From Octopus vulgaris (taxonomy: Eukaryota), in NCBI GenBank assembly GCA_951406725.2, contig OX597838.1, forward strand, positions 35,650,001 to 35,714,000: a stretch of 64,000 nt of DNA, read 5' to 3'. Below the pieces are notes generated by a model. It was not told the DNA's origin. It worked only from the letters and a program-made list of their open reading frames with translations, and searched no databases. Below are positions 3,321 to 64,000 of this stretch, one piece after another; the stretch's first letter is position 1, and every line of letters starts with the position of its first letter. The translations under genes and the position numbers were made by a program.

Positions 3321-4169
3321 GCATGTATATATATATGTATGTATGTATATGTATGTATGTATATGTATGTATGTATATGTATATATGTATGTATATATAT
3401 GTATGTATGTATATATATGTAAGTATATATATGTTTATATGTATGTATGTATATCTGTGTGTGTGTATACATATATATATATATATGTAATTATTATTCT
3501 ATAAAACAATATTTAAGACTTTCTGATTCCAAAAATTATAATTTATTTTCTTTTAAGCCATGAGCTTGTTACTTGCTAATGAATTCAGGTTATTTTTTTC
3601 TTTCCTTCTTTCCTTTTCTTTCTTTCTTTCTTTTTTTCCTTCCCATGTTATTAATAGTTTTCATTTCATTACTTCACTTTGCATATGTGTGTATATGTGT
3701 ATGTATCTGCGTATGTGTGCACAAATAAAAGTAACTGTGTAACTGTGTGTGTGTGTGTGTGTTTACATCTAATACATTTTTAATCATTTCTTTCTTTCTT
3801 TCTTATCTCATTCGTTTTTACTCCCCCCTCTCCCAGATATAACTTCTTTTTCCTTTTTCTCTTTTTGTTTGTCATTCTTCATTTTCTCACTCGATTCCTT
3901 TAAACTCTGTCAAGATCAAGAAATAATCTTGTTTCAGCAACGATGCCGTAATTGGTCTCACTCAAACAGCCAATGCTTCTGCTCCCAGGCTTAGTCAATT
4001 TGGAAGCATATTGTACTGCCTAATAATCGTCTAAAATAATGTAGTGCTTGTTGTATAGGAAAGGTCAGAGAAAATTACAGTAGAGGGCAGCAACATAGTA
4101 TAGAATAGTATAGGGAACAATAGTATAGGGTTAGGGAGTGCATAATTTAGTGTTGCATAGTAAATGTAA

Positions 4170-43819: not shown

Positions 43820-44039
43820 CCCTTTCGTTACCAACCAGGCTGAAACCAGCTCTGGCTCTGAGTACAAATGTCTTGTTTCCATAAGTTTTGAATTAAAATC
43901 TTCCACCAAGCCTTAGTCCCAATTTACGTTCCTAACACTAGCTTAATGATGACTAAGTTATTTTACTAAATTCTTTGTTATATTTGAAATAATTGAAAGA
44001 AACACAGAGCATCTCAACAGAAATATGGTAACCAAAGGG
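43820..44039 (+). mobile_element. piggyBac-type MITE family I, copy a
   Basis: TTAA|CCCTTTCGTTACC...GGTAACCAAAGGG|TTAA (13-bp TIR, one mismatch). Confidence 0.88.
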
Positions 44040-44070
44040 TTAAAATATATAATAGAGAAACAATCCTTAA

Positions 44071-44292
44071 CCCTTTCAATACCAACCCGGCTGAAACTGG
44101 CTCTGGCTCTGTCGTACAAATGTCTTGTTTTCATAAGTTTTGAATTAAAATCTTCCACCAAACCTTTAGTCACAATTTATGTTTCTAACACTAGCTCAAT
44201 GATAACTAAGTTATTTTACTAAATTCTTTGTTATATTTAAAGTATTTGAAAGAAACACAGAGCATCTCAAAATAAATACGATAATGAAAGGG
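44071..44292 (+). mobile_element. piggyBac-type MITE family I, copy b
   Basis: TTAA|CCCTTTCAATAC...ATAATGAAAGGG|TTAA. Confidence 0.88.
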
Positions 44293-44554
44293 TTAATCAC
44301 GCCTTTATCTTGTAGCTTTGAGATTTGGGCGATGGGATTGTTTATTTTTAGAATGACTTAGGAAAGGTAAGGTATAAGAAGAGTACCTGAATGTAAGAAT
44401 ATTTTGGCCGGGTATGGGTCAGTTTGAATGCTAAAGGATTGATCCAGTGGTTAACAACCATTTTCTGCTTTTGGATTCCTTTGATTCTTAATTTACTCCA
44501 CTGGACCTCCATAACCAGTCAGTTTATATGAAAGAAATCTTACTGAATTTTTAA

Positions 44555-44745
44555 GCATGGCTACATGGTAAGAAGCTTGCTTCCTAACTACATGGTCCTG
44601 GGTTCAGGCCCACTGAATGGCACCTTGGGCAAGTGTCTTCTATGACCTCAGGTGACCAAAGTCTTGTGAGAGGATATGGTTGATTGAAACTGAAAGAAGC
44701 CTGGTACATACATACATACATACATACATACATACATACATACAT

Positions 44746-44792
<47 letters not shown>

Positions 44793-44850
44793 AAGTTGTG
44801 TGTATGTGTCTGTGTTTGTCCCCACCACTGCTTGACAATCCCTGTAACTT
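44555..44850 (+). mobile_element. Older SINE-A copy (partial)
   Basis: Degenerate head, CCTTGGGCAAGTGTCTTC, (CATA)n centre, TGTGTTTGTCCCC. Confidence 0.7.
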
Positions 44851-45015
44851 ATAAAGTAGTAGGTATTTAAAATGAAAATACTTTTTATATGGTGAGATGA
44901 AGGGGCCTACTATCTCTAAATGAAAATATATAAATTCCTTCATTGAGAATAATTTGAACATCTGTTATGCCGGAATTTTTATTCCCTAAAAAATAAAATT
45001 ATATATATATATATA

Positions 45016-45372
45016 ACGGGAAGGTTTACGAAAATAAACAAAAGACAAAGGCAGGTTTACGAAAATAAACAAAAGACGAAGGCAGGTGGAGTACAAACAA
45101 ACAATTGTATTAGTATGGGCTCAGGAATAGAAATAAAACATATATATATATATATATATATAATGGGAAGGTTTACGAAAATAAACAAAAGACGAAGGCA
45201 GGTGGAGTACAAACAAACAATTGTATTAGTATGGTGCTCAGGAATAGAAATAAAACAAGTCTTTTACATTTCAAGCCTACACTCTTCGACAGAAAGATAC
45301 ACAGAAAAGAAACAAGGAGAGAAATGAGGAGAGAAAGAAATTGCATGTAGGGGCTAACGATCCAACATGGCG
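45016..45372 (-). mobile_element. Family G-related repeat with partial tandem copies and a decayed minimal hammerhead (45260-45297)
   Basis: rc TCTTT-CTGTCGA-A-GAG-tgtagg-CTT-GAAAT-GTA-AAAGA; shares TCCTGAGC...TAATAC with family G; three tandem copies of one end in (TA)n. Confidence 0.7.
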
Positions 45373-45499
45373 TTATACATACAGGCATAAATATATATAT
45401 AAACACATACACGCACATACACAATGTGTATTTATATATGTATATGAGTGTTCATATGTGTATATATAGACACCTGCGTATATGTGTATATATAGACAA

Positions 45500-45735
45500 G
45501 GCGGCGAGCTGGCAGAAACGTTAGCACGCCGGGCGAAATACGTAGCTGTATTTTTTTGTCTGCCATTATGTTCTGAGTTCAAATTGCGCCGAGGTCGACT
45601 TTGCCTTTCATCCTTCCAGGGTTGATAAATTAAGTACCGGTTATGCACTTGGGTCAATATAATCGACTTAATACTTTGTCCTTGTTTGTCCCCTCTATGT
45701 GGTAATATTACCCTCTTGTGGGTAATAAAGAAATA
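45500..45735 (+). mobile_element. SINE-C full-length
   Basis: GGCGGCGAGCTGGCAGAAACGTTAGC...GAGTTCAAATT...AATAAAGAAAT. Confidence 0.88.
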
Positions 45736-46176
45736 TATATATAGACAGCTGCATGAGTGAATGCAAAACACACTGTCATTGTCATTAAAAGTATTGATCA
45801 ATAGTATTACTTAAACAACAGATGCAGTTTCATGAGCAAAGTTATTAGAATGGCTTTGCTCGTGTGAAGTTTGAGACACAATATTACCACAAGAACCAGA
45901 AGAGAAGACAAAAACATGAGCTTGAAGCAGCTGCTTTTGCAGATGCCACTCACAAAGGCTTTTTTTTTCTTTTAAATAAAGGAAGACAAAGAAAAACGTT
46001 TTCTTCAAACTTTTGTTTCATATTTCGAAAGAAAAGCAGGCTTTGATTACCAGTTGATGATCGGAAATGAGTGACCCCGAGTCCTGGAAACTGGAGCCTT
46101 TCAGTTATAACATATTAATGAATACTCTATACTCTCATTGATTCCCGTAGTTTGTTGCTTCTAGTGAATCAAGATA

Positions 46177-46591
46177 TACTCTTTTTACTCTTTTACTTGT
46201 TTCAGTCATTTGACTGTGGCCATGCTGGAGCACCGCCTTTAATCGAGCAAATCGACCCCAGGACTTATTCTTTGTAAGCCCAGTACTTATTCTATTGGTA
46301 TCTTTTGCCAAACCGCTAAGTGACGGGGACGTAAACACACCAGCATCGGTGTGAAGCAATGCTAGGTGGACAAACACAGACACACAAACACATACACACA
46401 TATATATATATACATATATACATATATACGACAGGCTTCTTTCAGTTTCTGTCTACCAAATCCACTCACAAGGCTTTGGTCAGCTCGGGGCTATAGCAGA
46501 AGACACTTGCCCAAGATGACACGCAGTGGGACTGAACCCAGAACCATGTGGTTGGTTAGCAAGCTACTTACCACACAGCCACTCCTGCACC
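46177..46591 (-). mobile_element. SINE-A full-length
   Basis: Reverse complement consensus match. Confidence 0.92.
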
Positions 46592-46622
46592 TTATATATT
46601 ATATATTCATATATTCTGCTAT

Positions 46623-46972
46623 TCTTTTACTTGTTTCAGTCATTTGACTGTGGCCATGCTGGAGTACCACCTTAAAGGGTTTTTAGTTGAAGAAATTGAC
46701 CCCTTTGTAAGCCTACTACTTATTCTGTTGGTCACTTTTGCAAAACCACTAAGTTATGGGGACATAAACACACCAACGTCAGTTGTCAAGTGATGGTGCC
46801 CCCCACTACATATATACGATGGGCTTCTTTCAGTTTCCGTCTACCAAATCCACTTGCAAGGCATTGGCTGGTCCTTAGGCTATAGTAGAAAGCACTTGCC
46901 CAAGGTGCCATGCAGTGGGACTGAACCCGGAACCTTGTGGCTGGAAAGAAAGCTTCTTATCACACAGCTATG
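46623..46972 (-). mobile_element. SINE-A older subfamily copy
   Basis: Same architecture, more diverged, extra AAGGGTTTTTAG segment. Confidence 0.8.
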
Positions 46973-46978
46973 TCTTTG

Positions 46979-47014
<36 letters not shown>

Positions 47015-47164
47015 AAATGATGATGATATATATGTATGTGTGTGTGTATATATATATGTACTAGCTGAATTACCCTGCATTGCTTGCGTTTCTGCTGTTT
47101 TTATTCAAATTAGTAAACAATAAATATGAAGATATATTTTTTTCTCATAATTATTTGGCCGTTG

Positions 47165-47628
47165 ACAGCACCACCCTGATTGGCCTCCATGTTGGTGGCA
47201 CGTAAAAAGCACCATCCGATCGTGGCCATTTGCCAGCCTCATCTGGCACCTGTGCCGGTGGCACGTGAAAAGCACCATCCGATCATGGCCGTTTTCCAGC
47301 TTTGCCTGGCCTCTGTGCCGGTGGCACGTGAAAAGCACCATCCAATCATGGCCATTTGCCAGCCTCATCTGGCACCTGTGCCGGTGGCACGTGAAAAGCA
47401 CCATCCAATCATGGTCGTTTGCCAGCCTCATCTGGGCTCCATACCGGTGGCACGTAAAAAGCACCCACTACACTCACGGAGTGGTTGGCGTTAGGAAGGG
47501 CATCCAGCTGTAGAAACATTGCCAGATCAGACTGGGCCTGGTGCAGCCTTCTGGCTTCCCAGACCCCAGTTAAACCATCCAACCCATGCTAGCATGGAAA
47601 GCGGACTTTAAATGATGATGATGATGAT
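47165..47628 (+). mobile_element. Family E with four 63-bp units
   Basis: Unit spacing 63 bp (CACGTG at 47262, 47325, 47388); (GAT)n tail. Confidence 0.8.
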
Positions 47629-48093
47629 CTATATTTTATTTTAAAAATATCTAAATTGTAATAATAACAGAATTTTGAACTGAAAATCTGTCGGTCTTGA
47701 AGCACTTTAGGGTAAACAATATTCTTTGTGTAATTTTTTGTTGGTGTCGAAATGAATAAAAAATTGTTGCTTCTTCTAGCTCGTGAGCAACCAGCATAGA
47801 GTTGGCCACGGGAGAAGCATGTAGTATAGAGATGAAGTTCAACTACCTTAAGGGATTGACTCTGAGATTTGTTAATTGAAATACCAAAACTTAGTTTGGC
47901 CAAAACTTAGTTCAAATGGATCATTTATGTATGAGAGGAATTTTTGGAATAAACACATTTTCCTCCATTGTGACTACCTGTTATGCTTGTTGCCTGTAGG
48001 ACACGGGGCTTCATGGAAGTAACTATTGAGTTCCATTTCACAGGCAAGGTTTGTCAAAGTTTGTCAAGCAACATAATGGAAGCATCCATAATA

Positions 48094-48258
48094 GGTGCAG
48101 GAGTGGCTGTGTGGTAAGTAGCTTGCTTACCAACCACACAGTTCCGGGTTCAGTCCCACTGCGTGACACCTTGGGCAAGTGTCTTCTGCTATAGCCCCAG
48201 GCCGACCAAAGCCTTGTGAGTGGATTTGGCAGACGGAAACTGAAAGAAGCCTGTCGTA

Positions 48259-48302
<44 letters not shown>

Positions 48303-48523
48303 CGTGTGTGTTTGTGTGTCTGTGTTTGTCCCCCTAGCATTGCTTGACAACCGATGCTGGTGTGTTTACGTCTCCGTCACTTAGCGGTTTGGCAAAAGAG
48401 ACCGATAGAATAAGTACTGGGCTTACAAAGAATAAGTCCCGGGGTTGATTTGCTCAACTAAAAGGCGGTGCTCCAGCATGGCCCCAGTCAAATGACTGAA
48501 ACAAGTAAAAGAGTAAAAGAGTA
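48094..48523 (+). mobile_element. SINE-A full-length inserted in the Helitron helicase frame
   Basis: Consensus match; ATCCA on both sides. Confidence 0.92.
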
Positions 48524-48889
48524 TCCAGTTTTAGTGTCAAGGTACGCAGTGGCATCCCAGTGGGTTTGAGTGTGTTCAGAAATCCAACAGGGCATTGAAC
48601 TGCCTGCTCTTGATCGACTGTTATGTGAATTGAAGGAAAGTCATCTCTGATGTATCTGTTAACTTTTGAAGTTCATGATTGAGTTTATCAACCATTTCAT
48701 TAGGTGGAGCCACTATAGCTCTTTGACATGGCCAGTTTACATCAGTGTAATTGACAATTGCACATGTACTCACACATACATATACATTGTCACATACATA
48801 CATTCTCACATACATACACTTAGACAGATGCACACACAGACATACATTTACGTAATGAATGCGCAAACACACACACACACTCACAAACA

Positions 48890-49320
48890 CATACTCATAT
48901 ACAAAACGTATCAAGGTGGTGCATAAAATGTCCTTTACTACGTGGTACATAACAAATGGGCAAATACACACACACTCACAGACACATATACACTCATATA
49001 CAAAATATACCATGGAGGTGGTGGTATAGAATGCCCTTTACTATGTCATATGTAGCGCATGCACAAACACACACACTGACAGGCACATATACAAAATGTG
49101 TTGTCCTTGTGGTATAAAATCTTCATTACTGTGCAAACACAGAAACACTGACAGACATGTTCACATTCATATACAAAATGTGTCATTGTGATCATTGTAT
49201 AAAATGTGTTTTACTATGTTGTACATAACAAATGCGCAAACACACACATACACTCTCATCTGCAAAATGTGATGTCGTAGTTGTTGTGGTGGTGGTATAA
49301 AAGGTGCTGTACTATAGTTG
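48890..49320. repeat. Degenerate ~90-110-bp tandem repeat, ~5 copies
   Basis: Recurring CATATACAAAA...GGTGGTATAAAATG...TTTACTA...GCAAACACACAC. Confidence 0.65.
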
Positions 49321-49692
49321 ACTAAAGAAACATTAATTTTGAGAAAATGTTATATTGTTTTTATCCAAATGAAAATAAAAATTACATGTTGACACTCATG
49401 GGGTTTAATAGTATTACCTTGTAAAGACAGAGAGAATGACAAAGAATTTTATATGTATAGTGATGATGATGAGGATATGTGTGTGTGTATGATGATGATA
49501 TATGTGCTTATATGCACATGCACACACACAAACGCACACACACGCACACATAAATGTCGAACAGTGAGAAAGAGCGCTCAACATTGCATTGGCAGGTAAA
49601 GAATCTTTACTTGTAAATTAAGGCTACCATTGGTTTCATGCTAAGAAAATATCTTAACGATTTGTCAAGCTGATCGCTTGGAGAAATTTTTC

Positions 49693-49729
<37 letters not shown>

Positions 49730-50479
49730 TAGGCTTCTTTCATTTTCCATTTACCGAATTCACTTACAAGACTTTATACATGAATGTTGGAAAGGGAGCT
49801 TCTTAATTATACATCGATTGATTCTATTGGAACAATTTAGTTGGGTGTGTCTTGAGCTTTCTTTTTTTGTCTGGCAGATACAATAGAGACAACAGTCATA
49901 TCCTCAGTTATCTCTGAATTTTTTTGTCATTACTATTTGCCTCTTGTTATTACAGCTGGTTGCTTTCCCTTTTGCTAGTCTTATGGATAGATATTAATTG
50001 AAAGAAAACATTATCTATCTGTGTGTATTCGTCTGTGTATGTGTGTGCATATATATATATATAGAAAGACAGAGCTGAATACATGAATCCCCTTCTATTC
50101 TTTCTGATTTTCAACTATGGCCATGCTAGTGCGTTGCTTATAGTGATGTTATTTTATCATATTGATCTCAATATTTTATCTTATATTACATATTTCATCA
50201 TCAACATCACTTTGGATCCTCTTTAGATGATGACATATGCTAATAGGTCATCATGTCCCAATTCAACATACACACACACACGTGTGTATGTGTATATAAT
50301 ATATATATAATAATGATATTAGGGAGTATACTATCTGTTTGTTTTGCCTAATAGTGGTTTTATCACTAATTTAATTTATATATATATATATAGTTGAAAT
50401 TTATAGAAAAACATAAGATGAAGACAGGTGTATGATCAACAAGTAGGTGTATTAGTTTGAAGCTTGGGAAAGTGAGAAT

Positions 50480-50714
50480 GTATGTGTGTGTATATGTCTG
50501 TGTGTCTGTGTTTGTCCCTCTAGCATTGCTTAACAGCTGATGCTGGTGTGTTTACGTCCCTGTCACTTAGCGGTTCGGCAAAAGAGACCGATAGAATAAG
50601 TACTGGGCTTACAAAAGAATAAGTCTCGGGGTCAAGTTGCTCGATTAAAGGCGGTGCTCCAGCATGGCCGCAGTCAAATGACTGAAACAAGTCAAAGAGT
50701 AAAAGAGAGAGAGA
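50480..50714 (+). mobile_element. SINE-A 3' half, preceded by a G-like fragment (50396-50478)
   Basis: TGTGTTTGTCCCTCTAGC... to AAAGAGTAAAAGAG. Confidence 0.85.
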
Positions 50715-50976
50715 GCTGTTTGACCAATGCCAACATAGAAAACAAAGATAAAATGTTGATGATGATTGTTGTTGGTGTGTATAGATGAATGTCTATACTT
50801 TACAAAATAACCTGATGCTGATGGCAAGGGAGGTGATCTGGCTGTGGAGTACAACTTCAACAAGTCTCATCCTCTCCAGACCAACATGGTAAAAGAATAT
50901 GATGTAGACATGTATGTAGATGTATGTGTTGTCCTGTATATGCGTTTGTATATATTTGTGTAAAAACATATATTTC

Positions 50977-51060
<84 letters not shown>

Positions 51061-51356
51061 GCTGTTTAAAGGGTGTATATTAGTTTGTATGAAAATGTTT
51101 ACATCACACTGTATGGGAGATGTAAATACATACAGTCATGTATACACTGTATGCGTATACACACACACACATGATTACACAAACACACACACATATATAT
51201 ATATATATAAATACACATACATTATGTGTGTGTATATATATATATATATAAAATACACATACATTATGTGTGTGTATATATATATATATATATATAAATA
51301 CACATACATTATGTGTGTGTATATATATATATATATAAATACACATACATTATGTG

Positions 51357-51391
<35 letters not shown>

Positions 51392-52397
51392 TGTATATTG
51401 GCTTCTTTCTTTGTGTCTGTATACTGTATATGCATGCATATATATAGCTGTATGTGTGTATGTGTATACTTGCATGCACATGCACACACACACATACACA
51501 AACACACACACACACACACAGAGTTATGGCAAACAATTTGTGCATCTCTGTGCTTGTACGCATGTAACATGTAAGCCGAGTGGAAGAAACAGCTTTAATA
51601 TGAAGTTCTGCTAGATTGGTTCCTCGGGGACACACAAAGGCTTCTGGCTGGAAGGCAAGGGAGTAGTAGAATTAGTCGCACTTACTTAGCTAATGAAATC
51701 CTTCAGAAAAGTGTAACCCCTCTTTGTCAGTGTGATTACTGCGAAAGCAAAGTGAATGATCCATAGAAAAGCCCTCAGTTAAAACCAGATGGTGGTGGCA
51801 GGATGGTCGGGGTATAGACGGATAGGTTGGTTCTGTTTCTGATGTGTTACGGAGATAATTTGTAAAGTGAAGCTAATAGATCAACTTGTTGATTGGAATG
51901 GAAAGAGACTGTAAAGCAAGCCTTTCTCATAATAATAATAATAATAATAAGAAGAAGAAGAAGAAGAAGAGGGGAGGTTTGTGTTCAGGTAGTCAACATA
52001 TAATTTGGCTTTGTACCAGGCTTATAAAGAGTTGAGATAATAAGGCAATTTTAGAAGAGATAATGGGTCCACTGAACAATGTTATTGCAGCTTGACCCTT
52101 GTTGTGCGGCTTGGCTTGGCTTGCTTTGACTTGGACCCCCAACTTATAATGTTGCCACAGGGGTAGTTTCGAAATGTTATTATCATCATTGTTTAACATA
52201 CAGTTTTCATGCTTGCATGAGTCAGACAGAACTTGTTGGGGTGGACTTTCTCTGGCCGGGTACCCTTCCTGTTGCCAATCCTCACCTGTCTCCAAGTAAG
52301 GTAATATTTTCCCACGATCGGATATATGTTGGAAGATTGGAAACTGAGGACACTGCTTGCATGGTGGTGACACCACTTACAACCATCACACTATACC

Positions 52398-52624
52398 TAT
52401 ATCTTTAATACCCGCAAGGGGCTAAACACAGAAGGGACAAACAAGGACAGAAAAACGGATTGAGCCGATTATATCGACTCCAGTGCGTAACTGGTACTTA
52501 TTGACCCCGAAAGGATGAAAAGCAAAGTTGACCTCGGCGGAATTTGAACTCAGAACGTAGCGGCAGACGAAATACCGCTAAGCATTTCGCCCGGCATGCT
52601 AATGATTCTCCCAGCTCGCCGCCT
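52398..52624 (-). mobile_element. SINE-C with 12-bp TSD
   Basis: TCACACTATACC at 52386-52397 and 52625-52636. Confidence 0.9.
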
Positions 52625-52677
52625 TCACACTATACCAAAGTGAAGAGACAATAGCACACACATTCACACACACACAC

Positions 52678-52836
52678 ATGAGAGGCTTCTTTCAGTTTCC
52701 ATCTACCAAACCCATTGACAAGGCTTTGGGCAGCCTGGGGCTATAGTAGAAGACACTTTACCAATGTGCATGCAATGGGATTGAACCCAAAATCATGAGG
52801 TTGGGAAGGAATGTACTTACCACACAGCCATTCCTG
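52678..52836 (-). mobile_element. Old SINE-A 5' half
   Basis: GGCTTCTTTCAGTTTCC...CTTACCACACAGCCA. Confidence 0.7.
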
Positions 52837-52848
52837 TATTTATATACT

Positions 52849-53082
52849 TATTTCTTTATTGCCCACAAGGGGCTAAACACAGAGGGGACAAACAAGGACA
52901 AACATAGGTATTAAGTCGATTACATCGACTCCAGTGCGTAAGTGGTACTTAATTTATCGACCCCCGAAAGGATGAAAGGCAAAGTCGACCTCGGCGGAAT
53001 TTGAACTCACAATGTAACGCAGACGAAATACCGCTAAGCATTTCGCCCGGTGTGCTAACGTTTCTGCCAGCTCGCCGCCTTT
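52849..53082 (-). mobile_element. SINE-C with 18-bp TSD
   Basis: TTCCTGTATTTATATACT at 52831-52848 and 53083-53100. Confidence 0.92.
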
Positions 53083-53399
53083 TTCCTGTATTTATATACT
53101 ATATACAAGTCTTCTCTCTGCTTGTTATTGTTGTGTACCAGAGCTCATGGTGACATTAACGTTTTGTCTGATATTCCATGCATGGCAATCTCACCTCATT
53201 TTGTATATCTCAGATTATATAGGTAAGTGTATCCATTTTTGCTTTTAAAAATTATCAGGTATGTTCTGAGCAAAATTAGCTGGTATTCCAAAAAGATCTA
53301 TACAATTACAGAAACCTCTCCTTTGCAGTGGTTGTGATGTGATAGTGGTAGTATGGAGGTGTGAGAGGTAGAGTGCAGGTTAGTGTGAAGGATTGTACA

Positions 53400-53442
<43 letters not shown>

Positions 53443-53455
53443 TCTTTTTTTTTTT

Positions 53456-53659
53456 TTTACTTGTTTCAGTCATTTGACTGCGGCCATGCTGGAGCACCAC
53501 CTTTAGTCGAGGAAATCGACCCCGGGACTTATTCTTTGTAGGCCCAGTACTTATTCTATCGGTCTCTTTTTGCCGAACCGCTAAGTGACGGGGACGTAAA
53601 CACACCAGCATCGGTTGTCAAGCGATGGTGGGGGGACAAACACAGACACACAAACATAT

Positions 53660-53720
<61 letters not shown>

Positions 53721-53883
53721 TACGATAGGCTTCTTTCAGTTTCCATCTACCAAATCCACTCAGAAGGCATTGGTCAGCCCGGGGCTATAGCAGAAAACAC
53801 TTGCCCAAGATGCCATGCAGTGGGACTGAACCCGGAACCATGTGGTTGATAAGCAAGCTACTTACCACACAGCCACTCCTGCA

Positions 53884-53885
<2 letters not shown>
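53456..53885 (-). mobile_element. SINE-A full-length
   Basis: Reverse complement consensus match. Confidence 0.92.
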
Positions 53886-53916
<31 letters not shown>

Positions 53917-54882
53917 TTCAGTTATTGGACTGTGGCCATACTAGGGCACCAATTTGAAGGGTTTGATCCTAGTAATTTTGATAAATAAGGCTGTATTCTG
54001 AGTTCTAACACAACATCCAAGTTAGAGATTACGATCGTCTTCCCCACCATGGAGGCAATGTGATTGAGCTCCTTTCAAGTGTTGGGCCTTATGGAGGCAA
54101 TGATCGAAACCCTTGGTACTATGTTGTGTTTGAGAAGAAACCCCATCAAGCCAAATGAAATTGCAGAGCCCCTGACTTGTCTGTTCGTATCAAACCATCC
54201 AACCCATGCCAGCATGGAAAAATTGATGTTAAATGATGATAATGATACGCACACACACACACACAATATGCCTCTTTCAGTTTCTGCTTACCAAATCTAC
54301 TCACAAGGCTTTGATCGGCCTGGGGCTATAATAGAAGATGCCTCATTGTGGAACTGAAACTGAAGCAGTGATTGCCAAATGCGCTTTCAGACCACACAGC
54401 CACACACACACACACATATACACATACACACACATGCAGATCAACATACATACATACATATATATGTATAGCAACAGAAGTGGTTGCAGTGTTAATGTTT
54501 GCCTGTGTTTGTGTGTGTGTGTTGTCTTTCTAAATCTTAGATTATAATTTATTGCTTCTATTTATCCGCAAAAAAAAAAAAAACCCGAAATAGTTTTGGA
54601 TAAAATAAAATAAAAATATATTATTTATCATTATTATTCTTATTATAAATTAGGAAATCATAATTTTGATTTTTTTTTTTTTTCAAATTTTTACCAATTT
54701 TTTTTTTTTTCAAATTTCCAAATTTCTTTTGACAGATTTTCTTTTTTGCTTTTTCTGTTTTAATTTTTTTCATTACATTTCTCAAAATTTTTCGCAAAGT
54801 TTTTTCCTCCAAAATTCTTTTATCTTTTAATATCATTAATTCATATATTTCTGTCATTATTATTATTATCATCATCATCATT

Positions 54883-54930
<48 letters not shown>

Positions 54931-55958
54931 GCTATTATTATTATTATTATTATTACCTAAACTCTGTATTTAGTATTATATTTGTGGTATTACATGGTGG
55001 TTTGTGGCATAACAATTCTAAAAATATGACTGAATTAGGGTTTTTGTTTTTTTCTTGGCAAGGTGAGGAGGGGAGTGCATTCGTTTGGTAGCAGTGGTGG
55101 TCGTGGTGAGAGTGCATATGTGTATGCAGAGCAGTATTTTTATATTTCATTTTATTTGCTTTCACTTTATTTATTTATTTTTTTTTAATTCTTTTTTTTT
55201 TATTTGGAGTGGGGTGGGCTGTGGGGGGTTGAAATCTTTCTTGTATACTAAGCTTCATTGATGCAAGATAATTTGTGATTTTGACTGGTTTATTGCTTGT
55301 CAAACATTGCCAATTTTCTCAGTTTGGTGTTTCTTGCGTTGTTTTTCTCATCATCATCATCATCACCATCATCACCATCATCATTATTATTTGTAGTAGT
55401 TGTTGTGAGGCAGTTGTTGTTTCCAGCCTCCTCCTCCTTTTGCTGCTTTATAGACAGCTTTTATTAGTATTGCTGTCGGTGGTTTTTTCTTTTTCTCAAT
55501 TTTTATGTCATGTAGGTTTTATTTTTTATTTTGTTCTAGGTTGGTAGATTTAAAAAAAAAAAAATTTTTTTGTATTTTTAAGGTATATGTGGTGGTAGTG
55601 GTGGTGGTGGTGGTGGTGGTGGTGGTGGATATGGTTTGTAGTGTAGCAGAATGGAGAATGGATGGAGGAGGGAACAATGTTTGTACAGTATGGTGGCTAT
55701 ATTATTTTAAATAACTGTTCCTGAAAGATAAAGAAGGCAAAAAAATAAAATAAAATAATAATAATGAAAGTGTGAATAAATAAATATAATAAAAATGTAA
55801 AAAAAATAATCCCCCCCCAAAAAAATAACCCCCCCCCCAAATCCCCCCAAAATACAAAACGAGCCAAGTAATGAAGGTATTTGGTTTAAATAATTATATT
55901 AGTTTTGTTTGATTAACTCTGGGAAAACTAAGGAAATAAATAAATGAAAGAGGGAAGC

Positions 55959-55962
55959 AATG

Positions 55963-56005
<43 letters not shown>

Positions 56006-56010
56006 TAATA

Positions 56011-56043
<33 letters not shown>

Positions 56044-56072
56044 TCATAATAATAATAATAATAATAATGATC

Positions 56073-56103
<31 letters not shown>

Positions 56104-56165
56104 TCATCATAATAATAATAATGGTAATCATAATAATAATAATAATGGTAATGATAATAATAATG

Positions 56166-56199
<34 letters not shown>

Positions 56200-56201
56200 T
56201 C

Positions 56202-56238
<37 letters not shown>

Positions 56239-56333
56239 TCATAATAATAATAATGGTAATCATAATAATAATAATAATGGTAATGATAATAATAATGATA
56301 ATAATAATAATAATGGTAATGATAATAATAATG

Positions 56334-56367
<34 letters not shown>

Positions 56368-56396
56368 TCATAATAATAATAATAATAATGGTAATC

Positions 56397-56489
<93 letters not shown>

Positions 56490-56573
56490 GTAATGATAAT
56501 AATAATGATAATAATAATAATAATAATAATGGTAATGATAATAATAATGATAATAATAATAATCATAATAATA

Positions 56574-56605
<32 letters not shown>

Positions 56606-56672
56606 GTTAATAATATGATAATAATGATAATAATAATAATAATAATGGTAATAATAATATTAATAAAATAAT
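55959..56672. repeat. Interrupted (AAT)n trinucleotide array, ~700 bp
   Basis: Visible; recurrent GAT/CAT/GGT interruptions. Confidence 0.95.
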
Positions 56673-57122
56673 AGGTAGCCAAAAGGAAGATGGAAAGCAA
56701 ACACAAAGGTGTGAAATAATTTATTATTATTATTATACCTTGCTGCTTTACAAATTGTGTATAAGTTATTTTATATCAAAAGTTCGATGACTGGTTACAC
56801 ATTAGAACTGTAACTAAATCTAAAATGATAGCACACACCCTGCTACATTATGCTTGACCATACCACACCACACACTACATTGCACTGCAACAAACAACTG
56901 TACACTACACTGCATCACACATGCCATCATCATAATATTACACTGCTACATCACACCACGGTGCACCATGTGCTGCACTAGAATTCACATTGTCGTTGTT
57001 ACACCCGACTGCTCTCTGCTGTATTGTGATGAATTATACCACATTGTGTTGCAACAAATCACACATCAGATCTAACTGCAATGAGCTGCACATCAAATTA
57101 CTTCACAGTTTTCCACCACACT

Positions 57123-57347
57123 GCGGCGAGCTGGCAGAAACATTAGCGCGCCGGGCGAAATGCGTAGCCGTATTTCGTCTGCCGTTACGTTCTGAGCTCA
57201 AATTCCGCCGAGGTCGACTTTGCCTTTCATCCTTTCGGGGTCGATTAAATAAGTACCAGTTATGCACTGGGGTCGATATAATCCGTTTGTCTGTTCTTGT
57301 TTGTCCTCTCTGTGTTTAGCCCCTTGTGGGTAGTAAAGAAATAGGTA
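57123..57347 (+). mobile_element. SINE-C full-length
   Basis: Consensus match with 45500-45735. Confidence 0.88.
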
Positions 57348-57511
57348 TGCACTCCACCACTCCATGTGACATCACACTGCTCTAACCCTTCAGCATTTAA
57401 ACCGGCCATATCCAACCCAAATATTCTATCTGTTTTATGTTCAAACTGGTCAGATCTGGCCCCTCTTAGCTCCCCTATAATATTATTCTAGAAACATACA
57501 ATCACATCATT

Positions 57512-57790
57512 ATGTAGTTTGCTCACTCACTCGATGGAGAAGGGATCAGGCCATTGCTGAGTGGTGATTCATTATCTGGTGCGAAGCACACGGTGCATGT
57601 TGAGCACTTTTGCGGGCACGGATGCAGGACACTTAGTCGAGAACAGTGTTGGTCGGGGTGTTTGACTGGGGTGGTATGTCTGTCAAACAGTAACACAGGC
57701 GTCCTGAGCTCAGTACGGACTGAAACCCTATGTTGAGTAAAAGGGCAAAAGCTTGCTCAATCTTGATTTCCAGTATGAATACAGACCGTG
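57512..57790 (+). pseudogene. Degenerate 28S rRNA fragment (expansion segment through the P-loop region)
   Basis: GGGGTGTTTGACTGGGGTGGTA..CTGTCAAACAGTAACACAGG..GAGCTCAG..AAGGGCAAAAGCTTGCTCAATCTTGATTTCCAGTATGAATACAGACCGTG aligns by eye to the conserved eukaryotic LSU GGGGAGTTTGACTGGGGCGGTACACCTGTCAAAC...GAATACAGACCGTG. Confidence 0.9.
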
Positions 57791-57953
57791 TTGTCCACTC
57801 TGCTGAGAGGTTGGTGTTATGAAGGGCATCCAGCTGTAAAAATCCTGCCAGTACAATCAAAGAAGTCTGGTGCAGGCTTTGGCCTGGCTGGCTCTTGTGG
57901 TAACGTCCCACCCATGCTAGCATGGAACATGGACATTAAATGATGATGATCAT
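57791..57953 (+). mobile_element. Family E (RTE) 3' tail fused to the 28S fragment
   Basis: GAAGGGCATCCAGCTGTAAAA...CCCATGCTAGCATGGAA...GGACATTAAATGATGATGAT. Confidence 0.8.
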
Positions 57954-58935
57954 CATCATTGAAATATCAAAGGTATGAGACAATGCATGATTAATTCAAA
58001 ACAATGTGAATAAATAAGCATTTCATTTGGCAGAATAATCTGAACGCTAAAGGGCTAAACTACACCACTCAACACAACACTACACCACACTAGGCCATAC
58101 TGTATTATGTACTGCATGAAACCACATGTTATTGCTGTGTACTACATGACATTACATCACACCACATATGACTACCTCACAACACTGAACCAAACCGTAA
58201 CGCATCGCAGTTCATTATATACCACAGTACTCCACATGATATTACACCATCCTATACTACTATTCTCTGGACTGCACCAATACCACACTGGTGTTTACCA
58301 CTCTAGAGCACACCACACCTCACAACATGACACCATCCCACAGATTGTGGCACTTAGACCACATCCCATGAAAGATGATTAAGGGGGCAGAAGATGGTGT
58401 TAAACTGGTGGTGGATTGGCCATTCAGCTATCCATCAATCCCTCCATCCCTCCAACAGTGTACGCATCCATCCATCCATCTAATTATCCATTTATCTCTC
58501 CATCCACCCAAGGATACATGCATTTATCCATTCGTCCACCCACCCATTCAGTATCCATCCATCAAACTATCCTAATATCCATCCATCCATCCATTTCCTA
58601 TCCATCTATCAATTCATCCATCAGGCTCTTCAAACATCTATCCATTCGACCATGCATGCATGCATCCATCTTTCAAACCATCCAATGGTTTTTCTAACCA
58701 TCCATCCCACCAACCAGCCAGCCAACCAACCCTATAACACAAGGACATAAATTTCATTGGAAGGATAGCTGCAGACTTCCAATCGACCGATCGATTCTAT
58801 CATCCTTCCTTCCTTCCTTCCTTCCTTCCTTCCTTCCATTGAAATTTATGTGTCCTTGTGTTGTCTCTTGCCTCAACTCAGTTACAATCGATCCCCTTCG
58901 ATGGTGGGTGGAGCAAATAAAAATAGGATAGAAAA

Positions 58936-59096
58936 CAGGAGTGGCTGTGTGGTAAGTAGCTTGCTAACCAGCCACATGGTTCCGGGTTCAATCCCACTGC
59001 GTGGCATCTTGGGCAAGTGTCTTCTGCTATAGCCCCGGGCCGACCAATGCCTTGTGAGTGGATTTGGTAGACGGAAACTGAAAGAAGCCTGTCGTA

Positions 59097-59153
<57 letters not shown>

Positions 59154-59376
59154 GTTTGTGTGTCTGTGTTTGTTCCCCTAGCATTGCTTGACAACCGATG
59201 CTGGTGTGTTTATGTCCCCGTCACTTAGCGGTTCGGCAAAAAGAGACCGATAGAATAAGTACTGGGCTTACAAAAAGAATAAGTCCCGGGGTTGAGTTGC
59301 TCGACTAAAGGCGGTGCTCCAGCATGGCCGCAGTCAAAAGACTGAAACAAGTAAAAGAGTAAAAAGAGTAAAGAGT
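58936..59376 (+). mobile_element. SINE-A full-length
   Basis: Consensus match. Confidence 0.92.
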
Positions 59377-59697
59377 GCAGGGTTTGAATTTGGATGGGAT
59401 ATTGAAGCTGTAAAGTAGACGACACAAAAGCACGGGGTTCCCTTCTGCATGGTTTATATAAACAACCAGCCGGCCGGCCGGCCAACCGACCATCATGAAA
59501 TCAAAACAGAATTCAAATAATTTGTTTGAAAGTGAGTAAACAAGTTGTTTACATGTCCATATAAGGGCAGTTGAGTATATGTGCCTCAGTTACTCTTTCT
59601 CCCCCCGTTGTCTTTCCCTCTATATCTCTTTTACCACCCCCCTACATTTCTCTCTCTCTCTTTGTATGGCACTCTCTTTCTGTCTCTTTCGCTTACT

Positions 59698-59739
<42 letters not shown>

Positions 59740-59958
59740 GTCTTGCATTTATTCACTCTTCCTGTCTCTCTTCCTTTCCTTTTCTTCAGTTTACATAGAC
59801 TGATAGTTCTTTGAGCTCCTCATAGTCTCTTGTCTCTTTGAATAAATACATACATACATATATATATATACACACACAGACACACACATACATACACACA
59901 CACATATATATATACATGGACATATATATATTTATGTGTATTTACTTTTGCAGGTTTG

Positions 59959-60011
<53 letters not shown>

Positions 60012-60300
60012 TCAGACACACAAATAGACATACATGCATATGTAAACAAACGACAAAAAAACCTCAACAACAAAAACCCCAAAATAAACAAGAACGTTTC
60101 ATGCCCCCTCTTTCGATAAAAAATAAATAAAGAAAAAAAGCACCAGAAACCTCTTCCTTCCCAGCAAAATCCCTTCACAAATACAAAAATGAGGAAAAAA
60201 AGAAAATGGTAGAACAAAAATTCCATTGCTAAACAGTTAACTTTTATTTTGGAACCATGTAAATATATTTACCTATTCCAACAGTAAGATAGTGGTAGTT

Positions 60301-60304
<4 letters not shown>

Positions 60305-60331
<27 letters not shown>

Positions 60332-60363
60332 AAGTAGGAGTAGTAGTAGTAGTAGGAGTAGTA

Positions 60364-60415
<52 letters not shown>

Positions 60416-60427
60416 GAGTAGTAGTAG

Positions 60428-60460
<33 letters not shown>

Positions 60461-60495
60461 GAGTAGTAGTAGTAGTAGTAGTATTAATAGTAGTA
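60305..60495. repeat. (GTA)n microsatellite
   Basis: Visible. Confidence 0.92.
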
Positions 60496-60651
60496 CCTCC
60501 ACCCCCACGTCACTGCTCCACCTCCCACACCTGAATGGTGATGTTGTTATGGAATTGGTTTAAACATTTTCATCTTGATTCAGTGGCAGAGTTATTGAAA
60601 TAACCTGTAATAAAAAAACAATGCCAGCATCACAACCACCATGGGGACACC

Positions 60652-62165
60652 ACTACCACTACCTACATCATACCACAACCATCAACACCACCACCACCAC
60701 CACCACCATCCACCACCACCACCATCATCATGATGTTACCACCTACATCATACCACAACCATCAACACCACCACCACCACCACCATGATGCTACCACCTA
60801 CATCACACCACTGCCACCACTACAACCACCATCCACCACCATCACCACCATGATGTTACCACCTACATCATACCACAACCATCAACAACACCACCACCAT
60901 CATGATGTTACCACCTACATCATACCACAACCATCAACAACACCACCACCACCATCATCATGATGTTACCACCTACATCATACCACAACCATCAACAACA
61001 CCACCACCACCACCATCATGATGTTACCACCTACATCATACCACAACCATCAACAACACCACCACCACCACCACCACCACCATCATGATGTTACCACCTA
61101 CATCATACCACAACCATCAACACCACCACCACCACCACCACCACCACCATCATCATGATGTTACCACCTACATCATACCACAACCATCAACAACACCACC
61201 ACCACCACCATCATCATCATGATGTTACCACCTACATCATACCACAACCAACAACAACACCACCACCACCATCATCATGATGTTACCACCTACATCATAC
61301 CACAACCATCAACAACACCACCACCACCACCACCATCATGATGTTACCACCTACATCATACCACAACCATCAACAACACCACCACCACCACCACCATCAT
61401 CATGATGTTACCACCTACATCATACCACAACCATCAACAACACCATCACCACCACCATCATGATGTTACCACCTACATCATACCACAACCATCAACAACA
61501 CCACCACCACCACCACCACCACCACCACCATCATGATGTTACCACCTACATCATACCACAACCATCAACAACACCACCACCATCATGATGTTACCACCTA
61601 CATCATACCACAACCATCAACAACACCACCACCACCACCACCACACCATCATGATGTTACCACCTACATCATACCACAACCATCAACAACACCACCACCA
61701 CCACCACCATCATCATGATGTTACCACCTACATCATACCACAACCATCAACACCACCACCACCACCACCATCATCATGATGTTACCACCTACATCATACC
61801 ACAACCATCAACAACACCACCACTACCACCACAACCATCATGATGTTACCACCTACATCATACCACAACCATCAACACCACCACCACCACCACCATCATC
61901 ATGATGTTACCACCTACATCATACCACAACCATCAACAACACCACCACTATCACCACAACCATCATGATGTTACCACCTACATCATACCACAACCATCAA
62001 CAACACCACCACCACCACCACCATCATGATGTTACCACCTACATCACACCACTGCCACCATGAAATGACCACCTATATCAAGCTGCCACCACTGCAACCA
62101 CCATCCACCACCACCACCACCATCACCATGATATTACCACCTACATCACACCACTACTACTACCA
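60652..62165. repeat. Compound minisatellite: constant core ATGATGTTACCACCTACATCATACCACAACCATCAACA plus variable (CCA)n(TCA)n linker, about 23 units
   Basis: Visible array with unit length varying roughly 52-73 bp. Confidence 0.95.
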
Positions 62166-62486
62166 CCATCACTAACTCCATGGCTCCTCATCCCCATCAT
62201 CACAGCCACCACCACCACTACCACCACTACCACTATAGCCAATACCACTACCACTGTAGCTAACATCACTACCACCACCATCACCTGGGACCTTAGCAGA
62301 AGAAATTTGCCCAAGGTGTCAATAGGACTGAACCTAGAACCATCTGGTTGGGAAGCAAACTTCTTACCACACAGCCACGCCTGTGCCTCAGAATGCTGCA
62401 AAAAGCAGAAGTTTTAATATATATTCCCTCAAATCCAGCAAAGTGCATGAGAAACTGGTGGATCATGCAGTTAACATCCTGCTTAA

Positions 62487-62772
62487 CTATTAACATTCAA
62501 ACTGGCCATTTCTGGCCCAAATATACTTCTGGTTTTATGTTCTAGCCAGCCAGATCCAGCCCATTACACCTACTCTTCAATGCCATTATAAAATATACAA
62601 TGGTGCAGGAGTGGCTGTGTGGTAAGTAGCTTGCTAACCAACCACATGGTTCCAGGTTCAGTCCCACTGCGTGGCATCTTGGGCAAGTGTCTTCTGCTAT
62701 AGCCCCGGGCCGACCAATGCCCTGTGAGTGGATTTGGTAGATGGAAACTGAAAGAAGCCTGTCGTATATATG

Positions 62773-62804
<32 letters not shown>

Positions 62805-63220
62805 GTATATATATATAATTTTAATCCAAACGGGAAAACAAAAAAACAACAACAGTGGAACAATTACAGTATTATTATTAATAGGCGCTCAGGAAATATG
62901 GAAGCAGTGTCTGTGTTTGTCCCCCTAGCATTGCTTGACAACCGATGCTGGTGTGTTTACGTCCCCGTCACTTAGCGGTTCGGCAAAAGAGACCGATAGA
63001 ATAAGTGCTGGGCTTCCAAAGAATAAGTCCCGGGGTCGATTTGCTCGACTAAAGGCGGTGCTCCAGCATGGCCGCAGTTAAATGACTGAAACAAGTAGAA
63101 GAGTAAAAGAGTAAAAGAATGACATCATCGAAATTTTGGAGCTATAAATTAATGATTAATTGAAAAGAAAGTGCGTGTAAAAAGCATTACCTTCGATAGA
63201 ATAATCTGAATTCTAAAAGG
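62487..63220 (+). mobile_element. MITE family H (degenerate) split by SINE-A
   Basis: TTAA|CTATTAACATTCAAACTGGCC... to 62600; resumes 63119 GACATCATCGAAAT...TCTAAAAGG|TTAA. Confidence 0.65.
62602..63118 (+). mobile_element. SINE-A with a G-like fragment (62819-62906, minus strand) in its central microsatellite
   Basis: Consensus halves flank TTAATCCAAAC...TATTATT...GGCGCTCAGGAA, the reverse complement of the family G 3' end. Confidence 0.88.
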
Positions 63221-63409
63221 TTAAACAGTTGTAGGTTTACATTGTCACGAGAAGCAGGAGCAGGGAGAGTGAGTTCCAGAGGGATGAGCAAGGACTTGGG
63301 TTGGTGGTTTGCGCAGTGATGGATGCAATATAAGTAATGAAATGAAGAGGTGAGTGTATTTGGCCAGTTATTCAACTCCGAGTAGCAGAGGTTGTTATAA
63401 TAGCAATGA

Positions 63410-63790
63410 GGAGGCGCAATGGCCCTGTGGTTAGGGCAGCGGACTCGCGGTCATAGGATCGCGGTTTCGATTCCCAGTCCGGGCGTTGTGAGTGTTTATT
63501 GAGCGAAAACACCTAAAGCTCCACAGGGCTCCGGCAGGGGATGGTGGTGATCCCTGCTGTACTCTTTCACCACAACTTTCTCTCACTCTTACTTCCTGTT
63601 TCTGTTGTACCTGTATTTCAAAGGGCCGGCCTTGTCACTCTCTGTGTCACGCTGAATATCCCCGAGAACTACGTTAAGGGTACACGTGTCTGTGGAGTGC
63701 TCAGCCACTTACGCGTTAATTTCACGAGCAGGCTGTTCCGTTGATTCAGATCAACTGGAACCCTCATCGTCGTAACCGACGGAGTGCTTC
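63410..63790 (+). mobile_element. tRNA-derived SINE, B head plus B tail
   Basis: A box TGGCCCTGTGG, B box GTTTCGATTCC; tail shared with the element at 4600-5045. Confidence 0.85.
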
Positions 63791-64000
63791 CATATATCCA
63801 TGTATAATAGCAATAGAACAGGCGAAGAGAAGACAGCATGTCTGTAGACCAGAAATTAGAGCATGCTTCTGAATAACAATCAGTTGAATGGCCTTTGTTA
63901 ACAAGATTAGAAGTTTTCGCATTATTAATCTCATTGTTGAACAATTTTAAAAAATTATTTACTGGCTTCGCTAGGCACAGGCATGGCTGTGTGATTAAAT

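What the first reader, a model, noticed from the sequence alone, without database searches (positions are those of the whole stretch)
57512..57960. 28S rRNA-RTE LINE chimeric retro-insertion (SINE28-like)
Seen: ~280 bp of degenerate LSU rRNA in sense orientation (strong match 57643-57790, weaker match back to 57512) is joined directly to the family E 3' tail ending (TGA)n. The unit sits inside an H-family MITE whose halves rejoin exactly, with CATCATT on both sides (57505-57511 and 57954-57960). Established: LINE RT template switching makes RNA-LINE chimeras (e.g. U6-L1), and 28S-derived SINE-like elements are known in vertebrates. Inference: rRNA and LINE tail integrated as one retrotransposition event, either a one-off chimera or a member of a 28S-headed SINE family I do not know from cephalopods.
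Basis: partly seen in the sequence, partly recalled or inferred. Interest (0 to 1): 0.72.

Follow-up and report, generated by a model that had tools for sequence, protein, structure and literature searches.

The report
One-off 28S rRNA–LINE fusion retrocopy
A 279-base decayed piece of large ribosomal RNA sits fused to the last 160 bases of a jumping gene inside one duplicated target site, likely because the jumping gene's copying enzyme hopped onto ribosomal RNA; it is a single copy of a kind known from humans, not a new element family, though it lies in a pile-up of similar rRNA scraps just before a spot where octopus ribosomes are reported to cut this RNA.

Summary
Observation confirmed. 57512-57790 matches host 28S (81%, mostly CpG decay). 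It is followed by the 3' end of an RTE-type LINE. Intact MITE copies have one CATCATT and this locus has two, so the 7-bp duplication is real. rRNA and tail are equally old (5.4% and 5.1% non-CpG); the MITE is older (11.1%). One TPRT event with template switching fits best. The SINE28-like reading fails: no other locus had this junction, the piece is not from the 28S 3' end, and it has no exact B box. Correction: the window's junction is a derived allele; contigs from another sample and a sister organism carry 21 more bases there. 28S-L1 chimeras are known in human and U6-RTE chimeras in anole, and this scan already noted 5.8S, 7SL, U6 and 28S fusions elsewhere in this genome. Side result: short 28S scraps are 4-8 times denser just 5' of the reported octopus H88 break (54 vs 14, 10 and 7 at control motifs), and this piece ends 35 nt before it. 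None ends at the cut, so that link is unproven.

The parts
57386..57511 (+). Left half of a non-autonomous MITE with CCC...GGG ends; its relatives are flanked by TTAA, this copy by CTAA at 57382-57385 and 58055-58058 ('piggyBac-like' is a recalled label)
   Evidence: (40 scored of 4776 candidates), alignment with 29 copies
57505..57511 (+). Left copy of the 7-bp target-site duplication (CATCATT)
   Evidence: present once, not twice, at the empty site of other MITE copies
57512..57790 (+). Sense 28S rRNA fragment covering the P-loop region. It corresponds to 304 nt of host 28S in the undeleted allele (G000:C20:24046141-24045838, minus strand), with 14 nt of internal deletions
57788..57792 (+). 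Junction. The window allele lacks 21 bases: 11 more 28S bases plus 10 of 12 unassigned filler bases. The remaining TT is the end of that filler
   Evidence: table 4 (X2, X4); (X1 identical to the window)
57793..57950 (+). 3' end of a 5'-truncated LINE (end of a ~1.2-kb 3' UTR) ending in (GAT)3; longer copies carry a reverse transcriptase ORF of RTE-type architecture
57954..57960 (+). Right copy of the target-site duplication, preceded by one extra CAT (57951-57953)
57961..58054 (+). Right half of the MITE, resuming in register with the family

Best explanation
This is a single-copy insertion of a sense 28S rRNA piece followed by the 3' end of an RTE-type LINE inside one 7-bp target duplication, likely made in one target-primed reverse transcription in which the LINE enzyme likely switched from its own RNA to a 28S molecule. 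Shown: the parts, their order and orientation, the duplication, equal ages of rRNA and tail, an older host MITE, uniqueness of the junction among the loci searched, and a later 21-bp deletion at the join that is polymorphic in organism A. Inferred: the LINE endonuclease nicked an older MITE. The (GAT)n end of the LINE RNA primed at a CAT-rich target. After about 160 nt the enzyme jumped to 28S RNA, leaving 12 filler bases, copied about 304 nt, and was joined to the target through a 2-nt TT overlap. The copy then decayed neutrally and did not amplify. RNA ligation before reverse transcription would give the same product and is not excluded.
For: The duplication encloses both parts, and the empty MITE site has one copy. 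Non-CpG divergence: rRNA 11/204, tail 7/138 (Fisher p=1.0), MITE 25/226 (p=0.014 against the insert). No LINE sequence lies on the left flank and no rRNA follows the tail. Duplications of 6 nt or more flank 7 of 28 ordinary copies of this LINE against 6.2% in shuffled pairs, so 7 bp is within the family's habit. Chance adjacency to a sense tail start within 25 nt is about 0.0017 per fragment. Two more candidates were found among 103 other short rRNA scraps (L187, L245) against 0.18 expected, P(>=2)=0.014; I read none in the mirror orientation. Both parts are present together in organism B. Human 28S/L1 chimeras have median 269 nt and 83% are sense (PMC13174262).
Against: The two extra candidates have no visible duplication, and L245's tail is only about 20 nt, which the chance estimate does not cover. 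Most copies of this LINE show no clear duplication (21 of 28 below 6 nt). rRNA scraps also sit inside LINE tails (L152, L186, L198), so non-TPRT capture next to tails occurs. The ages rest on few sites, on today's 28S as reference, and on a tail consensus from copies chosen for likeness. The 12 filler bases are unexplained. No listed contig bridged the tail-to-MITE junction. By eye, the T-stretch about 10 nt upstream that PMC6007223 describes for RTE targets is absent.
Confidence: 0.86

Rival explanations
1. Two independent insertions: a LINE tail entered with the 7-bp duplication, and an rDNA or rRNA scrap was later patched exactly into its 5' junction by break repair (or the reverse order).
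For: Dispersed rRNA scraps are common (104 short ones examined) and most have no tail or duplication. Three sit inside LINE tails (L152, L186, L198). The filler at the join could be repair filler.
Against: It needs the second insertion to land within a few bases of the first one's 5' end while sparing the left duplication (about 0.002 per scrap). The ages match. The tail has no duplication of its own. Organism B carries both parts.
Confidence: 0.09
2. A member of a 28S-headed SINE family (SINE28-like) mobilised by this LINE.
For: The head-plus-LINE-tail layout is that of many SINEs. An RTE tail made a snoRNA fusion into about 40,000 copies in platypus (as cited in PMC5322556).
Against: Junction BLAST found no other locus covering both sides (40 scored of 1475 candidates). 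The pattern for the window junction matched only this locus and the pattern for the undeleted junction matched nothing. All 73 places with the 28S motif were examined and none repeats this structure. There is no exact B box in the head. The piece is internal 28S, not the 3' end.
Confidence: 0.02
3. An assembly artefact joining repeats.
For: All three parts are repeats.
Against: Contigs of X1, X2 and X4 bridge the rRNA-tail join, and X2, X4 and X7 bridge the MITE-rRNA join. The CpG decay is locus-specific.
Confidence: 0.01

Closest known systems
[quoted passage not shown]
   Same: A sense internal 28S fragment of similar size (median 269 nt; here 279-304 nt) joined 5' of a truncated LINE in one event; not amplified
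   Different: The partner is an RTE-type LINE with a (GAT)n end, not L1 with poly(A); the host is an octopus; the human cases cluster at 28S 3,636-4,115
U6-RTEX-2, U6-L2 and U6-SINE template-switch chimeras of anole and platypus (Doucet et al. 2015, PMC4476161; passages read)
   Same: A non-L1 LINE with a simple-repeat end capturing a cellular RNA; short duplications (1-9 bp for L2)
   Different: The captured RNA is a Pol I rRNA fragment, not U6; an invertebrate host
SINE28 of mammals (Longo et al. 2015, PMC4994717; abstract and first part of the first Results section read)
   Same: 28S-derived head, target duplication, insertion inside another element
   Different: SINE28 comes from the terminal ~500 nt of 28S, has an A-rich tail, 27 loci and reported Pol III transcription; this piece is internal, has a LINE-derived tail and is single
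Tailless retropseudogenes (Noll et al. 2015, PMC5322556; passages read)
   Same: RNA fragments copied by LINE machinery with preferred 3' end points. L165 and L247 in this genome look like this (duplications of about 20 and 10 nt)
   Different: The finding itself carries a LINE tail; that paper tied tailless copies to L1
RTE-2_OV (Petrosino et al. 2022, PMC9115989; passages read)
   Same: Octopus LINE with one ~1,100-aa ORF of endonuclease plus RT
   Different: RTE-2_OV has a C2H2 finger and a ~600-nt 3' UTR; this family has a PHD-like insert after the RT core and a ~1.2-kb 3' UTR, so it is another family

Membership tests
RNA-LINE chimeric retrocopy | Cellular RNA copy directly 5' of a 5'-truncated LINE 3' end | tested here: met
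   12 filler bases in the undeleted allele
RNA-LINE chimeric retrocopy | One target duplication around both parts | tested here: met
RNA-LINE chimeric retrocopy | Both parts arrive together (same age, same phylogenetic presence) | tested here: inconclusive
   Ages equal and both present in organisms A and B; no outgroup with an empty site was seen, and organism D was not resolved at the join
RNA-LINE chimeric retrocopy | Template switch rather than prior RNA ligation | not testable with these tools
   Both give same-sense products (PMC13174262)
SINE28 / rRNA-headed SINE | Many dispersed copies with the same head-tail structure | tested here: not met
SINE28 / rRNA-headed SINE | Head from the 3'-terminal ~500 nt of 28S | tested here: not met
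   Rfam model positions 2425-2804 of 3401; host 28S continues well over 1 kb beyond
SINE28 / rRNA-headed SINE | A-rich simple tail | tested here: not met
   The tail is a LINE 3' UTR ending in (GAT)3
SINE28 / rRNA-headed SINE | Pol III promoter or transcription | tested here: inconclusive
   No exact B box in the head; one 1-mismatch hit at chance level (consensus recalled). Transcription not tested
RTE-clade LINE (tail donor) | Tail continuous with an RT-coding ORF | tested here: met
   RVT_1 E 8e-21
RTE-clade LINE (tail donor) | Single ~1,050-1,100-aa ORF with N-terminal AP endonuclease and RT (criterion recalled; also as described for RTE-2_OV) | tested here: inconclusive
   Met by relatives at about 60-68% identity (PF03372 + PF00078); the five long host copies fetched are truncated within RT, so their own endonuclease was not seen
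RTE-clade LINE (tail donor) | Microsatellite-like 3' end | tested here: met
   (GAT)n-type end in the 29 closest copies
RTE-clade LINE (tail donor) | RT phylogeny places it in the RTE clade | not tested
   No named reference RTs were available from the tools

The most novel reading that the evidence does not exclude
The octopus-specific post-transcriptional cut in 28S helix 88 opens the RNA just upstream to LINE reverse transcriptases. This chimera, whose 28S part ends 35 nt before the cut, and the pile-up of about 54 short 28S scraps beside it would then be a genomic fossil record of the break. Such a record could date when cleavage (not just the motif) arose, and could screen other genomes for hidden rRNA breaks from DNA alone.
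Probability: 0.33. Interest if true: 0.62.

Novelty: new member of a known kind. Interest (0 to 1): 0.33.

Why it matters
The locus itself is a neutral fossil. It extends 28S-LINE chimeras from human L1 to an RTE-type LINE in a mollusc and shows the raw material from which rRNA-headed SINEs could start, here without amplification. It matters more as a pointer. If the local excess of 28S scraps is caused by the H88 break reported in 2026, retrocopies would give a DNA-only, datable assay for an rRNA processing event that is otherwise seen only with fresh RNA. It is also a caution that junction details read from one assembly can be later deletions.

Tried and rejected
SINE family: rejected. My first junction pattern allowed a gap of only 20 nt and would have missed the undeleted join, so it was rerun with 30 (0 matches). 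By hand, an exact 19-nt motif finds about 4 in 10 copies at 5% divergence, so a family of 10 or more would very probably have shown. Reading the TT at 57791-57792 as untemplated or as a U-tail (a lead from earlier notes): rejected, because it is the end of a 12-nt filler after a deletion. Link to R2: the piece starts about 378 nt downstream of the R2 site, so none. Ends exactly at the H88 cut: not seen. Of 54 scraps, 25 end 43-65 nt and 11 end 14-29 nt before the cut, 5 end further upstream, 1 near the cut is a SINE overlap, and 12 cross it; crossing against the mirror distance gives 12 vs 20, p=0.14, and the 5' and 3' distance distributions do not differ by KS test (p=0.32). Of 12 scraps picked just 3' of the cut, one starts exactly at it (L249; 40 of 61 candidates scored): weak. 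Folding the junction region of 28S alone gave nothing useful (z 0.71). Organism D: one contig covers 57485-57688 with fewer than 31 bases on the MITE side, so it is not counted as bridging, and three further D runs listed no piece across the rRNA-tail join: no verdict. Joints that skip the insert come from other MITE copies and cannot be assigned to this locus. No RNA holder listed. The C2H2-finger ORF end upstream in L051/L077 is not shared with the other copies and belongs to another element. No gene context was found: 20 stop-to-stop frames of 110 aa or more in 44000-64000 look like repeats (read by eye). The look-up of earlier findings by sequence and by H88 words returned nothing. Literature searches listed no report of 28S-LINE chimeras in cephalopods, and (hidden break, 28S, retropseudogene) found 0 papers; the library lacks most subscription journals.

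Full report
Setting. The window is G000:C25:35650001-35714000 in a 2.8-Gb genome. It is an octopus by two signs: one of 120 listed homologues of the LINE protein carries the label Octopus vulgaris, and the host 28S holds the motif that PMC13321053 reports as specific to incirrate octopuses.

Observation. Rfam finds eukaryotic LSU rRNA at 57496-57837 (E 8e-22). Against the host rDNA array on C20, 57514-57788 aligns at 81%; 29 of 71 CpG positions but only 11 of 204 others differ, the pattern of a neutrally decaying copy. The tail begins at 57793 and ends in (GAT)3. Other copies of the surrounding MITE carry the CATCATT site once (29 aligned, several with point changes, one with a deletion), whereas the window has it on both sides of the insert and resumes in register.

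The tail donor. Walking upstream through longer copies gave a ~1.2-kb 3' UTR and then an RT ORF (RVT_1 E 8e-21, weak PHD hit below cut-off). Relatives at about 60-68% identity are single ORFs of about 1,050-1,100 aa with an AP endonuclease, RT and often a PHD finger. This is the RTE layout as I recall it and as described for RTE-2_OV (PMC9115989, passages), but the family differs from RTE-2_OV, and no tree was built. Ordinary copies have short duplications: 6 nt or more in 7 of 28, against 6.2% of shuffled pairs.

One event or two. Non-CpG divergence is 5.4% for the rRNA, 5.1% for the tail and 11.1% for the MITE (p=1.0 and p=0.014). The site counts are small, and the tail consensus came from copies chosen for likeness. 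Tails occur once per 7.2 kb in 287 kb of background, so chance adjacency within 25 nt in the sense direction is about 0.0017. No LINE lies left of the rRNA and no rRNA follows the tail. One insertion is the simplest account.

The junction is a derived allele. Contigs from run X2 (organism A, another sample) and X4 (organism B, 8 differences in 329 flank bases) span MITE, rRNA and tail with 21 more bases at the join; X1 equals the window. Read by eye against the host 28S, the first 11 extra bases continue the rRNA, and 12 bases (10 plus the TT) are unassigned. So the captured piece was 304 nt, and the deletion is recent and polymorphic. X7 (organism C) covers 57420-57790. Organism D is unresolved. 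No listed contig bridged the 3' join.

Family or single copy. Junction BLAST (40 scored of 1475), the window-junction pattern (1 match, self) and the undeleted-junction pattern (0) found no sibling. All 73 places with a 19-nt 28S motif from the piece were fetched and read: 17 long rDNA units, 2 rearranged rDNA blocks (dropped) and 54 short scraps. None repeats this structure. SINE28's defining features (3'-terminal head, A-rich tail, many loci; PMC4994717, abstract and part of Results) are not met.

Recurrence. Among 104 non-redundant short rRNA scraps (107 minus 3 rearranged rDNA blocks), three have this LINE family's tail directly downstream in sense with no LINE abutting upstream: the finding, L187 (61 nt of 28S plus ~165 nt of tail) and L245 (374 nt plus ~20 nt). 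I judged the mirror-orientation hits to be microsatellite matches or insertions inside tails, so none counts. Only the finding has a clear duplication. L070 joins 28S to the start of a SINE-like repeat. L165 and L247 are tailless with duplications of about 20 and 10 nt. Earlier notes of this scan report many 5.8S, 7SL, U6 and tRNA fusions, and one head-to-head 28S-SINE case, in this genome; I did not check them, and they are not independent support.

Known kinds. Law and Burns found 18 human 28S/L1 chimeras, median 269 nt, 83% sense (PMC13174262, abstract and passages). Doucet et al. found U6 chimeras with L2 and RTEX LINEs (PMC4476161, passages). The finding works like these and meets the tested features. 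I also read passages of PMC5322556, PMC6007223, PMC13282606 (the word rRNA does not occur in its main text) and PMC10946416. Nine searches listed no cephalopod case. No supplements were read; those of PMC13174262 and PMC13321053 may bear on positions and on the spread of the break motif.

The H88 lead. PMC13321053 (preprint; abstract, Introduction to Discussion and figure legends read) reports a post-transcriptional cut in 28S helix 88 of incirrate octopuses. The motif occurs once in the 30-kb rDNA stretch I fetched, and the undeleted rRNA piece ends 35 nt before the cut. Exact-motif censuses of short scraps give 54 at 80-100 nt 5' of the cut, 14 at 136 nt 3' of it, 10 at 590 nt 5' of it and 7 in 18S (binomial p 1e-6, 2e-8 and 4e-10). 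The excess is real for these four motifs. Against a direct link: no scrap ends at the cut, ends cluster 14-29 and 43-65 nt before it, 12 of 54 cross it (p=0.14 against the mirror), only three control positions were sampled, most scraps have no duplication, and the motif itself is A-rich, which could favour internal priming whatever the break. I put the link at one in three.

Verdict. Real, single, and most likely a template-switch retrocopy (0.86); not a SINE family. New member of a known kind; interest 0.33, lifted slightly by the testable H88 lead.

Noticed in passing
G000 genome-wide; 28S motif at window 57739-57757: Short 28S scraps are 4-8 times denser just 5' of the reported H88 cut than at three control motifs, with 3' ends in two clusters 14-29 and 43-65 nt before the cut.
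   Followed up: partly
window 57788-57790: A 21-bp deletion polymorphic within organism A: absent in runs X2 and X4, present in X1 and the window.
   Followed up: yes
L187 (G000:C28:12738685-12741703, minus strand): Second candidate 28S-LINE chimera: 61 nt of 28S joined to ~165 nt of another subfamily's tail with a short shared motif at the join; no duplication seen.
   Followed up: partly
L245 (G000:C23:43471516-43474533, minus strand): 374 nt of 28S followed by about 20 nt of the LINE's (GAT)n end, 45 bp downstream of another tail copy; no duplication seen.
   Followed up: partly
L165 (G000:C11:99274821-99277839) and L247 (G000:C9:48193759-48195818): Tailless 28S fragments flanked by direct repeats of about 20 and 10 nt, like tailless retropseudogenes described for L1 in mammals.
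   Followed up: partly
L070 (G000:C2:7315684-7318855): 28S fragment joined in sense to the very start of a SINE-like repeat; no clear duplication.
   Followed up: partly
L186, L152, L198: rRNA scraps sitting inside LINE tails and replacing part of them; L186 could be a LINE-28S-LINE double switch or break repair.
   Followed up: no
L004-L010, G000:C20:23.95-24.07 Mb: rDNA array of about 18.3-kb units; at least one unit (L004) has an element with an R2-type endonuclease motif inserted at the canonical R2 site, and several dispersed 28S pieces start at that site.
   Followed up: partly
L072-L073 (G000:C20, about 24048100-24048900): This 28S unit holds a duplicated segment of about 575 nt; variant or assembly error not tested.
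   Followed up: no
L249 (G000:C2:151677973-151680029): A 57-nt 28S scrap that starts exactly at the first base after the reported H88 cut.
   Followed up: no
window 57123-57348: A SINE-like repeat with at least four more near-full copies in the window lies just upstream of the MITE.
   Followed up: no
window 57382-57385 and 58055-58058: The MITE is flanked by CTAA on both sides instead of its family's TTAA, suggesting insertion at a non-canonical site.
   Followed up: no
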